The notes under the pieces were generated by a model that did no database searches, was not told the DNA's origin, and was given only the letters and a program-made list of their open reading frames with translations. A stretch of 64,000 nt of DNA, from contig OX597836.1 in the NCBI GenBank assembly GCA_951406725.2, positions 2,542,001 through 2,606,000 of the forward strand. The letters run 5' to 3'. A program made the translations under genes and the position numbers. Below, piece by piece: positions 303 through 60,965 of the stretch. This stretch comes from Octopus vulgaris. Taxonomy: Eukaryota. Within the stretch, counting starts at the first letter, position 1. Each line of letters starts with the position of its first letter.

Positions 303-724
303 GCAACAACAACATCAGACACTTCGCCAACGATCATCCCCTTCATCTAAAGCCCTGTAGCCGTCATCTCTGCAGCTGTAGCGATTGTGTTTATGGCCTT
401 CATTTCTGCTGCAGCATTAACTCCAAGCCTAGTCCGAGCTTTGCAGAATGAACACCCTAAAGGCACATGTATGTGACTATAATATGACAGGATATCATAT
501 TGTGAAATATGCATTATTAATTAAACTGGAGAAGGCTTTTTTAGCGAAGTTTGGAAACACATCGGAATAGGTTGTGAAAGATTGGACATGACTCATGCAG
601 GTAGCTTCAACGCCTGTTTCCATACCGTATTATGTCTCTGCGTAGGCATAACAATATGTGCGTATCTAGCTATAGCAATACTATCGACCTATCATTTATC
701 TCTTTGTGTGCCCATATCTATCAG

Positions 725-725
<1 letters not shown>

Positions 726-791
<66 letters not shown>

Positions 792-820
792 GCCTATCTA
801 TCTATCCATCTATCTATCTA
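726..820. repeat. (TATC)n microsatellite
   Basis: Direct reading; abuts the 5' end of the LINE fragment. Confidence 0.95.
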
Positions 821-1520
821 CACGTGTGGGACGAGTCGGTTTATCAGCTGAGTCTATCGTCAATATTGTCACGCCTCCTTCCTTCAAACGGGAAGGAAGA
901 GCTATTTTCATCATCCTTGTGGCTATGGCGAAAGAATGTATCTGGTGGACGCGTCTGAAAGGATTGGAGACAAACACTTTCCTCTCTGGTCAATCTCTCA
1001 TCAACTTCTTCAAGTACCACTTGAAAAGGAAAGTGAGAGTAGAGAGGTAAGTTTTGTCTAGCGAATGTTTTAAAAAAAGATGGGTGAATGTAGCAAGAAT
1101 GGCACGTATGAATGACGAAGCCACCTTGAGCATGATCCTATGAACCCAGAAATCGAAAACAGAGAGTTGCTTATTTGCAAAAAAAAAAAAAAAAGAAATA
1201 TAAAATGTGACTGCATTGACCGAGGTTACCGTGGTCTTTTCCGTAGGCTTTTCTTTCCACGGGTAAACCTCACCTGTCCTCCCCTTTACACTTCATATTG
1301 ACATTTCTGTGATAACGATCCCTATTGATCAATTTATTTTTTCCTCTCCCCCTTTTTTTTAACCCCCCTTTTTTGTCCTCTTTCTCTCCTTTTACGATCC
1401 CTTTTGATCGAAACTCCCCCTTCCTTTTTTTTTTTTTTTTTTAACCCTTCAAAAGAAAAGCTCTACCTTGTAATTTGTTCTATCTGTGTGCAGCCCTGTG
1501 TGGCTAATAAAGAAACATAT
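821..1520 (+). mobile_element. 5'-truncated Tx1/L1-clade non-LTR retrotransposon: ORF2 C-terminus (to 1143) plus 3' UTR
   Basis: Translation ...IFIILVAMAKECIWWTRLKG...FFKYHLKRKVRVER*VLSSECFKKRWVNV...LSMIL* has one premature stop (1048-1050) and the AKxxIWxxR ... FxxxW pattern of Tx1-like ORF2 ends. The pyrimidine-rich UTR ends in AATAAAGAAA. Confidence 0.75.
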
Positions 1521-2569
1521 CTAACATCTAAATCTCATATGTCATCTATTTATCTATCTATCGAATCATCTATTATTTATCTATTCATCTTCCAGTGTGT
1601 GTACTTATCTACTTATGTATGTATGTATGTATGTATGTATGTATGTATGTACGTATGTATGTATGTATGTACGTATGTATGTAAGTGTGTATGTATGCAT
1701 TGACGCATGCATACATAATCATAGAATGACAAGGAAACAAAATATATATAATATGCTTTCTATATAGTCATACGTATATTGTGTGTATACATACATATAT
1801 AAATACATATATAAATACATATATATGTATGCATGCATATATATTTGTGTGTATGCATGCACATGTATGTATATGCACGTACGTATATAGTGTATCCATA
1901 TGAATATTAGAATATAGAGAGAGCGACAGCGTATATCCTGCTACTTTTCTCCGTGTACTAGTCGTTCCAAAGATGATATATGGAAGAGACTGGACGATCA
2001 ATAGCAGTTAGACGAAGAGCTTTGCCAAATTCACTTGGCTTCCGACCAAACTTCCCCCACTTATGTTAAGGCATGGTCTCGTATGTAACACAGAAAACTT
2101 AGACGCACACACACACACTCGTACACATTGGCAATATACATATGCACATATAAACACAGTCACGTGTACATAAACAAAAACACACTTACATACATACTAC
2201 GCGCAGCTACACATTTTCAAATATATCCGCGAAACTGTAGAACAAATTAAATCTAATTAAAATATTAACATATAAAGGACTCAATATGGAAAGAAGAGTT
2301 AAATGTTGCCCTTTTGTCTCGATAAATGTTGCTGTGAATACAAAGTTTAGTCGAAAGTCGAATTCTTTCGGATAATTTGAGAAATTCCAAATTTCGTAGA
2401 CATATTACGGATCGCTATCTGCATAATTATGGATCGTTAAATGCATGAGAAACGTCAAAGTTTCGTCCCGTGACATTTTCTCATAAAGCTGGATTCTAAG
2501 ATTCCATGCCATATATGTATACTACCTCCCCCAATACTCTCTCCAATCTGTTGGTGTGTTGTGCATATT

Positions 2570-2700: not shown

Positions 2701-2780
2701 CTGAAATGTATCAATCTATCTATTTATCACAAACACTCACACACTAACACAAAAAACACACATATGCATTAACATATATA

Positions 2781-2925
2781 TACGACGGGCTTCTTTCAGT
2801 TTCCATATACCAAATCCACTCACAGGGTTTTGGTCGACCCGAGGCTCTAGCAGAAGACATTTGCCCAGGGGCCACGCAGTGGACTGAATCCGGAGCCATG
2901 TAGCTGACAAGCAAGCTACTTTCCA
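2781..2925 (-). mobile_element. tRNA-derived SINE family 2 (CORE-like), partial
   Basis: Homologous to the copies at 39035-39195, 57935-58095 and 60392-60549 (GGCAAGTGTCTTCT..TATAGCCTCGGG..GACCAAAGCCTTGTGAGTGGATTTGGTA). Confidence 0.85.
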
Positions 2926-11373: not shown

Positions 11374-11740
11374 GAATGTACTACGGTGAGTTTGTTCGAC
11401 CAACAAATATTCTGGAAGGCAGTGCCCCAGCATGGTTGGATGTATATTGACTGAAAAGAGTGAAAGATAAAGGAAAGGATAAATTGCAGAGAAAATATCA
11501 TAAATGATTAATGTTTACAATTCTTCCATCAAGATGTGAACTAATTTGCAATCTTCATCCTGAAGGCAAAAACAAAAGCGAGAATATATTTGTCAGACTT
11601 GCGAATTTCGTGGCACATTTATCATTCGATCTCTTCGCGATAAGGTTTTTCTTTTTGTCTTCGAGTATATTTTTCGTTGGTGTGTTCTATAATTTTCATG
11701 TCACTTGGTTATACATCTTAAAGATATTTCTTCCAGGTTA

Positions 11741-11970
11741 AGGCGGCGAGCTGGCAGAAACGTTGGCACGCCGGGCGAAATGCGTAGCTGTATTTCGGAT
11801 GCCGTTATGTTCTGAGTTCAAATACCGTCGTGGTCGACTTTGCCTTTCATCCTTTTGGCGTCGATTAAATAAGTACCAGTTAATGACTGGGGTCGATGTA
11901 ATTGACTTAATTTGTCTGTCCTCGTTTGTCCCCTCTGTGTTATACCCCTTGTGGGTAATAAAGAAACAGG
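11741..11970 (+). mobile_element. Full-length SINE family 1 with Tx1-like tail A, flanked by 10-bp TSD TATTTCTTCC
   Basis: A-box-like TGGCAGAAACGTT, B-box GAGTTCAAAT, and a core GCCTTTCATCCTTT..GCGTCGAT resembling the Meta/Sauria-SINE domain. Direct repeats at 11725-11734 and 11971-11980. Confidence 0.9.
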
Positions 11971-11984
11971 TATTTCTTCCTGTC

Positions 11985-14617: not shown

Positions 14618-14840
14618 AGACAGTGAGTTAGCAGAATCGTTTGCATGATGGGAGAAATGCTTAGCAGTATTTCACCTGCCGCTACGTTCTGAGTTCAAAT
14701 TCCGCCGAGTCTGACTTAACTTTTCATCCTTTCGGAATCGATAAATTAAGTACCTGTTGAGTACTGGGGTCAATCTAATCGACTGGCCCCCTCCTACACA
14801 ATTTCGGGCCTCGTGCATAGAGTAGAATCGATTAATATTA

Positions 14841-16796: not shown

Positions 16797-17190
16797 ATTC
16801 TTTCTTACTCTAGGCACAAGGCCGGAGATTTTGGGGGAGGGGGCAGTCGATTAGATCGACTCCAGTACGCAGCTGGTACTTAATTTATTGACCCGGAAAG
16901 GATGAAAGATAAAGTCGACCTCGGTGGAATTTGAACTCAGAGCGTAACGGCAAACGAAATACATATTTCTTTACTACATACAAGTGGCTAAACACAGAGA
17001 GGACAAACAAGGACAGACATACGGATTAAGTCGATTATATCGATCTCAGTGCGTAACTGGTACTTATTTAATTGACCCCGAAAGGATGAAAGGCAAAGTC
17101 GACCTCGGCGGAATTTGAACTCAGAACGTAGCGGCAGACGAAATACCGCTAAGCATTTCGCCAGGTGTGCTAACGTTTCTGCCAGCTCGC
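16797..17190 (-). mobile_element. Nested SINE family 1 dimer: head + body + tail A, then GTATTTC + body + tail B
   Basis: GTATTTC on the minus strand at 17146-17140 and 16962-16956. The second unit lacks the head upstream of GTATTTC. Confidence 0.9.
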
Positions 17191-48570: not shown

Positions 48571-48960
48571 CACGTTAGCGCGCTGGCGAAAGTTCTTAGT
48601 GGTATTTCGTCTGCCGCTACGTTCTGATTTCAAATTCCGCCAAGGTTGACTCTGCCTTTCATTTTTTCGGGGTCGATAAATTAAGCACCAGTTACACACT
48701 GGGGGTCTATGTAATCGACTTAATCCGTTTGTCTGTACTTGTTTGTCCCCTCTATGTTTAGCCCCTTGTGAGTAGTAAAGAAACAGAAATAGATATTTCG
48801 TCCATCTTTGCGGTCTGAGTTCAAATTCCACCCAAGATGATTTTGCCTCACATCCTTTCGGTGTTTATAAAGTTCGTACCAGTAATACATTGGGGTGTAT
48901 GTAATATTTCATCCCACTCTCCCAAAATTTCAGGTATTGTGTCTACAGTAGAAAGGATTA
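48571..48960 (+). mobile_element. Nested SINE family 1 dimer (younger body + tail A inside an older tail-B copy)
   Basis: GTATTTCGT at 48602 and ATATTTCGT at 48793. The downstream body is visibly more diverged. Confidence 0.85.
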
Positions 48961-54502: not shown

Positions 54503-55448
54503 GGTAGCGAGCTGGCAGAATCATTAGCACGCCGGGCGAAATGCTTAGCGGTATTTCGTCTGCGTTACGTTGTGAGTTCAAATTCCGCTGAGGTCGACTT
54601 TGCGTTTCATTCTTTCGGGGTCGATAAATTAAGTACCAGTTACGCACTGGGGTCGATGTAATCGACTTAATACCTATGTCTGTTCTTGTTGTACCCTCTG
54701 TGTTTTGCCCCTTGTGGGTAATAAAGAAATAGGTATTTCGGGCGTCCTTACGTTGTGAGTTCAAATTCCGCCGAGGTCGACTTTGCCTTTCATCCTTTCA
54801 GGGTCGATTAAATAAGTACCAGTTACGCATTGGGGTCGATATAATCGACTTAAATCCGTTTGTCTGTCCTCGTTTGTCCTCTCTGTGTTTAGCCCCTTGT
54901 GGGTAGTAAAGAAATAAGTATTTCGTCTGCGTTACGTTGTGAGTTCAAATTCCGCTGAGGTCGACTTTGCGTTTCATCCTTTCGGGGTCGATAAATTAAG
55001 TACCAGTTACGCACTGGGGTCGATGTAATCGATTTAATACCTATGTCTGTCCTTGTTGTACCCTCTGTGTTTTGCCCCTTGTGGGTAATAAAGAAATAGG
55101 TATTTCGGGCGTCCTTACGTTCTGAGTTCAAATTCCGCCGAGGTCGACTTTGCCTTTCATCCTTTCGGGGTCAATAAATTAAGTACCAGTTACGCACTGG
55201 GGTCGATGTAATCGACTTAATCCGTTTGTCTGTCCTTGTTTGTCCTCTCTGAGTTTAGCCCATTGTGGGTAGTAAAGACATAGGTATTTCTGTCATCCTT
55301 ACTTTTTGAGTTCAAATTCCGCCGAGGTCGACTTTACTTCTCATCTTTTCGGGGTTGATAAAATAAGTACAAGTGAAACATAGGGTTGAAGTAATCGACT
55401 TAAACCTGCCTCGAAATTACTGGCCTTGTGCCGAAATTTGAAAGCAAT
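54503..55448 (+). mobile_element. Nested tandem SINE array: head + 4 x (body + tail A) + older body + tail B
   Basis: GTATTTC unit starts at 54551, 54733, 54918, 55100 and 55284 (periods 182, 185, 182, 184). Confidence 0.95.
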
Positions 55449-60549: not shown

Positions 60550-60558
60550 CTGTAAATA

Positions 60559-60965
60559 GGGCAGTGAGGTGGCAGAAACGTTAGCACGCCGGGCGAAATG
60601 CTTAGCGGTATTTTGTCTGCCGTTTCCTTCTGAGTTCAAATTCCGTCGAGGTCGACTTTGCCTTTCATCCTTTCGGGGTCGATTAAATAAGTACCAGTTA
60701 CGCACTGGGGTCGATATAATCGACTTAATCCGTTTGTCTGTCCTTCTTTGTCCTCCCTGTGTTTAACCCATTGTTGGTAGTAAAGAAATAGGTATTTTGT
60801 CTGCCTTTACGTTCTGAGTTCAAATTCCGCCGTGGTCGACTTTGCCTTTCATCTTTAGGGGTCGAAAAAATCATGTATCTGTTACGCACTGGGGTCGATG
60901 TAATTGACTTAATTTCTTTGCTTGTCCTCTCGATGTTTGGCCCCCTGTGGGCAATAAAGAAATAT
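60559..60965 (+). mobile_element. Nested SINE family 1 dimer (two tail-A units)
   Basis: GTATTTTGTCTGCC at both 60608 and 60792. Confidence 0.9.

What the first reader, a model, noticed from the sequence alone, without database searches (positions are those of the whole stretch)
1461..1520. SINE tail A matches the 3' end of the Tx1-clade LINE: candidate autonomous partner in the same window
Seen: the LINE end TCTACCTTGTAATTTGTTCTATCTGTGTGCAGCCCTGTGTGGCTAATAAAGAAA aligns with SINE tail A TCTGTCCTTG---TTTGTCCCCTCTGTGTTTAGCCCCTTGTGGGTAATAAAGAAA (e.g. 11916-11967, 55230-55280). Both keep a small terminal hairpin (AGCC/GGCT versus GCCC/GGGT). Established: SINEs borrow the 3' ends of partner LINEs, and Tx1-clade APE endonucleases are often sequence-specific. 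Inference: family 1 swapped tail B for a Tx1 tail and so gained target specificity.
Basis: partly seen in the sequence, partly recalled or inferred. Interest (0 to 1): 0.75.

Follow-up and report, generated by a model that had tools for sequence, protein, structure and literature searches.

The report
Shared SINE tail, different LINE partner
A very common short repeat in this genome shares its tail with a whole group of long jumping genes, but the one beside it here lands in TATC repeats, which the short repeat rarely does, and its likely carrier is a relative that lands at the same spot inside the short repeat itself.

Summary
The tail match is real and belongs to the LINE (29 of 30 copies carry it), but this LINE is probably not the partner. 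The window holds a 0.7-kb 3' fragment of a young L1/Tx1-type family (A) that inserts in (TATC)n. Tail-A SINE ends are followed by (TATC)n in 0 of 159 sampled ends and 0 of 24 in random DNA; genome-wide about 0.1%, against a 0.3% background. Half sit at one site in the SINE's own head (12 of 24), and others at similar GGTAT sites. A dozen or so related LINE families share the terminal hairpin-AATAAA motif. The SINE has the hairpin type of the other clade (E/F/G). Family E inserts at that same SINE site in 46 of 47 copies with a full tail, and its older copies match the SINE's age. Tail B is older, so the B-to-A swap holds. Overall tail identity alone does not single out E, and no named Tx1 reference was tested. 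The scan noted the E/SINE system and the TATC family before on other DNA of this genome.

The parts
821..1517 (+). 5'-truncated 3' fragment of LINE family A (L1/Tx1-type, TATC-targeting)
   Evidence: 99-100% identical to 40 scored matches of 1147 candidates; boundaries from comparison of 30 loci
821..1143 (+). last 107 codons of ORF2, with an in-frame TAA at 1048-1050
   Evidence: compared with intact ORF2 P0001
1474..1517 (+). terminal motif shared with SINE tail A and with the other LINE families of this lineage; 4-bp hairpin at 1492-1505, AATAAA at 1506-1511, no poly(A)
722..820 (+). (TATC)n tract, 5' side of the LINE's target
1517..1560 (+). degenerate TATC tract, 3' side of the LINE's target
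11739..11968 (+). tail-A SINE monomer; 14-bp target duplication (11723-11736 and 11969-11982) resembling the SINE's own position-54 site
16845..17188 (-). tail-A unit followed from position 55 by an older tail-B unit
48572..48905 (+). tail-A unit followed by a degenerate tail-B unit
54503..55440 (+). array of one head, four tail-A units joined at position 54/55 and a final tail-B unit, flanked by one target duplication
60554..60964 (+). two tail-A units joined at position 54; the second tail has the hairpin of the older family-E copies
14621..14830 (+). example of a tail-B SINE monomer (older form); 3' end approximate

Best explanation
The window LINE (family A) is a TATC-targeting cousin that shares a lineage-wide 3' motif with the SINE, and the tail-A SINE is likely copied mainly by LINEs of the sister clade, above all family E, which inserts at the same site inside the SINE's own head. 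Shown: the shared motif, the two LINE clades, the different targets, E's 13-16-bp duplication of SINE positions 54/55 to 66/69, and the ages. Inferred: an older tail-B SINE took a tail from an E/G-clade LINE by template switch (G has the closest last 29 nt). E-type ORF2 protein would bind the hairpin-AATAAA end, nick the site at position 54 or looser GGTAT sites, and reverse-transcribe from the nick. Head-less arrays would form because the duplicated overhang is identical to the SINE cDNA, or by later recombination. Family A and its sisters would carry the SINE only occasionally.
For: Family A: 28 of 29 tailed loci are followed by TATC-type repeats and one by (TA)n. Tail-A ends followed by (TATC)n: 0 of 159 (after dropping 62 ends from loci selected on their flank) and 0 of 24 in 400 kb of unselected DNA. 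Genome-wide there are 136 exact matches of an estimated 119,000 exact ends (17 in 400 kb), about 0.1% against a 0.31% background. In unselected DNA 12 of 24 ends are at SINE position 54 and 5 at GGTA-like sites. Duplications were called for 23 of 39 ends, and their first six bases are mostly G,G,T,A,T,T. Family E: 46 of 47 loci with a full tail are at position 54, the 47th runs into an N gap, and 4 of 51 loci lacked a full tail. Intact E ORF2 is 55% identical to A. Two quick trees separate A/B/D from E/F/G (SH-aLRT 100 and 98). Last 29 nt against the SINE: G 26-27, E 24-26, A 22-23. The SINE has the C-G third pair and 5-nt loop of E/G, while A has G-C and a 6-nt loop. Only one SINE body with the A/B-type hairpin was found genome-wide. 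Divergence: SINE tail A 5.2%, older E 4.0%, sampled A 0.2-0.6%.
Against: Overall tail identity does not pick E. Over the last 38 nt up to AATAAA, family B (TATC-targeting) scores 31-33 of 38, E 32 of 39 and A 28-30 of 38. E is strictly site-specific, whereas half of the SINE ends lie elsewhere, so either targeting relaxes in trans or other families contribute. G, the closest tail, hits the SINE head in only 2 of 30 loci, at position 21. Most of the 20 TATC-flanked SINE loci examined have TATC on both sides in family A's orientation, and the opposite orientation was not counted. Ages for A come from top hits and are biased young; older A-like copies exist (86-92% amino-acid identity). Arrays could also grow by recombination. 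Trees were quick searches without bootstrap. No mobilisation was tested.
Confidence: 0.72

Rival explanations
1. One reading: family A, the LINE in the window, is the autonomous partner, and the SINE took its tail and target.
For: Tail match far above chance. Family A has intact ORF1 and ORF2 elsewhere. 136 tail-A ends lie next to TATC. One SINE carries a family-B tail beside TATC-type repeats.
Against: Targets differ. The TATC share is below background. The hairpin type differs. Sampled A copies are much younger than the SINE wave.
Confidence: 0.05
2. Several carriers: the tail is a lineage-wide key read by several families (E, G, others, rarely A/B), and each SINE variant's insertion spectrum reflects its carrier.
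For: The variant ending GTAGTAAA is at position 54 or GGTA-like sites in 78 of 95 ends. The variant ending GCAATAAA is at position 21 or AGAA-like sites in 11 of 22 and at position 54 in none. Several G copies have AGAA flanks. LINE-SINE tail chimeras exist (L208, L300, L302, L307).
Against: G's preference is weak (2 of 30 at position 21). The variant-target link could come from the SINE RNA's own 3' end instead. This rival overlaps with the best explanation and differs only in E's share.
Confidence: 0.35
3. Target choice is set largely by the SINE RNA: read-through past the tail into the downstream SINE unit gives a 3' end that anneals to nicked GGTAT sites, whichever LINE supplies the enzyme.
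For: Each family's 3' junction runs without poly(A) directly into target-like sequence. Loose GGTA targets in unique DNA fit short annealing.
Against: Full-length E copies show clean duplications at one site, which is simply explained by a specific endonuclease. No RNA 3' ends were examined here.
Confidence: 0.2
4. The head-less arrays come from DNA recombination or slippage or from multimeric source genes, not from repeated insertion, so the position-54 count overstates SINE targeting.
For: Most arrays lack a second head. Some arrays have near-identical units (L063, L224). One duplication flanks each whole array.
Against: L053 shows a nested insertion with the duplicated site. Final tail-B units keep older-subfamily bases and 8.2% divergence. 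GGTAT preference also holds in unique DNA.
Confidence: 0.2

Closest known systems
Tx1-Mar LINEs and SINEU of crocodilians (PMC4494074; passages and section 16 read)
   Same: Partnership inferred from shared target and age. The target is another transposon, and different Tx1 families use different sites within it.
   Different: There the target is a Mariner DNA transposon and, for SINEU-1, no LINE with a matching 3' end was reported. Here the SINE shares a tail motif with the LINE lineage and is itself the target.
Kibi, Koshi and crocodilian microsatellite-targeting Tx1 families (PMC4494074, passages)
   Same: Families A-C and D insert specifically in microsatellites.
   Different: Repeat units are (TATC)n and (ATT)n rather than (TC)n, (TTC)n, (TTCC)n or (TTTC)n. 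Relationship by tree was not tested.
Stringent SINE/LINE tail pairs: ZfL2 (PMC4176376, passages); maize ZmSINE with monocot L1 (PMC3747384, passages)
   Same: Shared 3' end with a small stem-loop and paired changes. In ZfL2 the loop decides which LINE protein acts, which makes the 5-nt versus 6-nt loop difference here relevant.
   Different: The same review reports only 3 SINEs with L1-clade tails. Here one motif is shared by a dozen or so families with different targets.
Octopus tRNA-derived SINEs OR1/OR2/OK (Ohshima and Okada 1994; cited in passages of PMC4758252 and PMC4824008, paper itself not read)
   Same: An abundant SINE with A- and B-box-like motifs (consensus recalled) in a probably octopus genome.
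   Different: Identity with a named family was not tested; no reference sequence was on hand.

Membership tests
L1/Tx1 group of non-LTR retrotransposons (family A) | ORF2 with N-terminal APE endonuclease, RT and C-terminal zinc-binding motif | tested here: met
   PF03372, PF00078 and PF13966 above curated cut-offs; the same for E and D
L1/Tx1 group of non-LTR retrotransposons (family A) | ORF2 closer to L1 than to other clades with solved structures | tested here: met
   human L1 ORF2p E 8.5e-54 against R2 4e-20; few clades are represented in that library
L1/Tx1 group of non-LTR retrotransposons (family A) | two-ORF structure, frequent 5' truncation | tested here: met
   about 6.1 kb, ORF1 680 aa with a CCHC knuckle seen in the sequence (no Pfam hit), ORF2 1149 aa
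Tx1 clade proper | RT groups with named Tx1 elements (Tx1L, Keno, Kibi, Koshi) | tested here: inconclusive
   no protein named Tx1 among the 240 listed hits, 10 clusters looked up, or atlas rows; trees hold no named reference
Tx1 clade proper | sequence-specific insertion | tested here: met
   A in (TATC)n, D in (ATT)n in all 30 loci, E at one SINE site
SINE/LINE partner pair: SINE with family A | shared 3' tail | tested here: met
   but shared as well or better by B, E, G, F1, F4, F6
SINE/LINE partner pair: SINE with family A | shared insertion target | tested here: not met
   0 of 159, 0 of 24, about 0.1% genome-wide
SINE/LINE partner pair: SINE with family A | overlapping period of activity | tested here: inconclusive
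   0.2-0.6% against 5.2%, but the A sample is biased to young copies
SINE/LINE partner pair: SINE with family E | shared 3' tail | tested here: met
   41 of 53; last 29 nt 24-26; same hairpin type
SINE/LINE partner pair: SINE with family E | shared insertion target | tested here: met
   46 of 47 E loci and 12 of 24 SINE ends at position 54
SINE/LINE partner pair: SINE with family E | overlapping period of activity | tested here: met
   older E 4.0% (14 loci); SINE 5.2%, quartiles 4.1-7.2% (75 units)
SINE/LINE partner pair: SINE with family E | trans-mobilisation by the LINE protein | not testable with these tools
   needs a cell assay
tRNA-derived SINE | tRNA-related head | tested here: inconclusive
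   ARAGORN found no tRNA and Rfam no meaningful match; A- and B-box-like motifs judged from a recalled consensus

The most novel reading that the evidence does not exclude
One SINE uses a tail shared by a radiation of site-specific LINEs, and its variants track different carriers. Its main carrier targets the SINE's own promoter region, so the passenger supplies, and keeps renewing, its carrier's landing sites. The youngest carrier lineage has followed a younger SINE head variant (4 of 4 full-length young E copies sit in a variant seen in 5 of 23 sampled heads).
Probability: 0.35. Interest if true: 0.75.

Novelty: new variant of a known kind. Interest (0 to 1): 0.52.

Why it matters
It shows that a good tail match plus proximity can name the wrong partner when a whole LINE lineage shares the motif; target site and hairpin type decide. 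The set of related LINEs with different targets, and a SINE that is both passenger and target, would make it directly testable whether endonuclease or RNA 3' end sets target choice in L1/Tx1-type elements. It also explains the head-less SINE arrays in this window. SINEs with L1-clade tails are reported as rare (PMC3747384).

Tried and rejected
Adjacent SINE scrap: rejected. Chance or composition: rejected by shuffles. Unusual folding stability of the tail: not found. A pattern search for a LINE with an exact tail A behind a purine run gave 21 matches, none with ORF2 sequence leading into the tail. A search with an Argonauta homolog returned mostly family D again. An apparent 46% family in L024 was a frameshifted A copy. 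A named Tx1 reference could not be obtained. The careful tree did not finish; quick trees are reported. The repeat finder was swamped by microsatellites. The origin of tail B was not found, and the opposite-orientation (GATA) count was not made. Literature searches listed no paper on a Tx1-tailed or self-targeting octopus SINE. PMC13282606 (part 1 of 3 and passages) lists 13 recently active L1-Tx1 families and has no occurrence of 'target' or 'nested' in its main text. Its supplements, Repbase and subscription journals were not seen and may hold these families.

Full report
Observation. The quoted sequence is at window 1462-1516. It matches eight SINE tails in the window at 73-81% over 41-46 nt, best E 2e-6. 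Family majority tails align at 28-30 of 38 positions, well above all 300 shuffles. The two quoted hairpins appear in predicted folds, but the tails are no more stable than shuffles. Across 17 natural tails the third stem pair takes four forms, which supports a real small hairpin just before AATAAA (loop size chosen by the script).

The LINE in the window. The window lies in a 2.8-Gb genome. The nearest named homolog is from Argonauta hians, so the host is probably an octopus (inference). Positions 821-1517 are the 3' end of a young family, here A: the 40 scored matches of 1147 candidates are 99-100% identical. The terminal segment is present in 29 of 30 loci, so it is not a SINE scrap. Full-length copies are about 6.1 kb with ORF1 (680 aa, CCHC knuckle) and ORF2 (1149 aa; APE, RT, zf-RVT). 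The best solved relative is human L1 ORF2p. No named Tx1 sequence could be placed in a tree, so L1/Tx1 group is shown and Tx1 proper is inferred from architecture and site specificity. The window copy holds only the last 107 codons and an in-frame stop, so it is not itself autonomous. Family A has no poly(A) and runs into TATC-type repeats in 28 of 29 tailed loci, with TATC also on the 5' side of 6 of 7 full-length copies shown.

Where the SINE inserts. If A were the partner, tail-A SINEs should share its target. They do not: 0 of 159 ends are followed by (TATC)n (62 ends from loci chosen by their flank were left out), and 0 of 24 in 400 kb of unselected DNA. An exact genome-wide pattern finds 136 tail ends next to three TATC units (a few overlap). 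With 17 exact ends in 400 kb, the genome holds roughly 119,000, so the share is about 0.1%, against 0.31% of all positions; the estimate is rough. In unselected DNA 12 of 24 ends lie at position 54 of the SINE's own head and 5 at GGTA-like sites. Target duplications were called for 23 of 39 terminal ends, and they mostly begin G,G,T,A,T,T. The window copy at 11739-11968 is an example. The arrays at 16845-17188, 54503-55440 and 60554-60964 are joined at position 54/55.

A lineage of LINEs with one tail motif. Searches of the genome found sisters B and C (84% and 76% amino-acid identity, also in TATC), D (72%, in (ATT)n in 30 of 30 loci), E (55%), F1-F7 with other targets and G. Two quick trees place E, F and G in one clade apart from A, B and D (SH-aLRT 100 and 98; no bootstrap, C left out). 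All end in a related hairpin-AATAAA motif. Overall identity to the SINE tail does not pick a partner: over 38 nt B scores 31-33 of 38, E 32 of 39, A 28-30 of 38. The last 29 nt do separate the clades somewhat (G 26-27, E 24-26, A 22-23), and the SINE has the E/G hairpin type, not A's. Only one SINE body with the A/B-type hairpin was found in the genome; it carries B's tail and sits beside TATC-type repeats.

Family E is the likely main partner. Of 51 distinct E loci, 47 have a full tail; 46 of these are at SINE position 54 and one runs into a gap after the same first bases. Four full-length copies have the SINE head up to position 66-69 on the 5' side and the SINE from 54/55 on the 3' side. 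Older E copies diverge by 4.0% and tail-A SINEs by 5.2%. Sampled A copies diverge by 0.2-0.6%, though they were top hits and biased young. Against a simple one-to-one pair: E is strict while the SINE is loose; G has the closest end but hits the SINE head in only 2 of 30 loci, at position 21; and the two SINE tail variants differ in target (78 of 95 at position 54 or GGTA-like sites; 11 of 22 at position 21 or AGAA-like sites).

Tail swap. Tail-B units diverge by 9.1% (29 units from unselected loci) against 5.2% for tail A (75 units). Tail-B units at the ends of arrays keep tail-B diagnostic bases. This fits a B-to-A swap followed by insertion of A units into older hosts. The source of tail B was not found.

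Mechanism. Shown: motif, clades, targets, duplications, ages. Inferred: a template switch gave the SINE an E/G-clade tail; E-type ORF2 protein binds it and primes reverse transcription at the position-54 site or similar sequence; head-less units arise by homologous joining at the 5' end or later recombination. In ZfL2 LINEs the loop decides which protein acts (PMC4176376, passages), which is a lead for why A would read the SINE poorly.

Comparison and novelty. Closest is Tx1-Mar with SINEU in crocodilians, which share a target in a Mariner element (PMC4494074, passages and section 16). Microsatellite-targeting Tx1 families are known from the same paper. A review counts only 3 SINEs with L1-clade tails (PMC3747384, passages). 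Six searches listed no description of a self-targeting Tx1-tailed octopus SINE; Repbase, supplements and subscription journals were not seen. Earlier notes of this scan describe the E/SINE system and the TATC family on other DNA. My reading before the look-up already doubted A; the notes confirmed that such a family was worth seeking and pointed to PMC4494074.

Verdict. Observation confirmed; interpretation partly supported. The SINE did gain a tail from this LINE lineage and a target preference, but the LINE in the window is a cousin, not the main carrier. New variant of a known kind; interest 0.52.

Noticed in passing
L222, L223, L227, L236 (full-length young E): All four sit in the SINE head variant CGTAGCC, seen in 5 of 23 heads in unselected DNA plus the window, and their 3' junction has C where older E copies have G. 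The young lineage may have followed a younger head variant.
   Followed up: partly
G000:C4:93.80-93.83 Mb, C47, C50: Family D forms head-to-tail stacks at about 5.87-kb spacing, many with open 1145-aa frames, in (ATT)n.
   Followed up: no
L272-L291: Families F1-F7 each have their own 3' flanks; some repeat between loci (for example L272, L274, L275, L286, L288, L289), suggesting further specific targets.
   Followed up: no
L208, L300, L302, L307, L298: Chimeras in which a LINE fragment or another repeat ends in a SINE-type tail A, suggesting template switches between RNAs with this motif.
   Followed up: no
window 14785-14830 and other tail-B units: Tail B also holds a small hairpin with a CTTGT loop before a purine run; its LINE source is unknown.
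   Followed up: no
L224:2501-2812 (oriented): Four tandem 78-bp units of SINE positions 160-237 lie before a full-length E copy.
   Followed up: no
window 2768-2915: A copy of a second, unrelated SINE-like repeat.
   Followed up: no
L024, L035, L041, L044, L050: Families A, B and C stack head to tail inside one TATC tract.
   Followed up: partly
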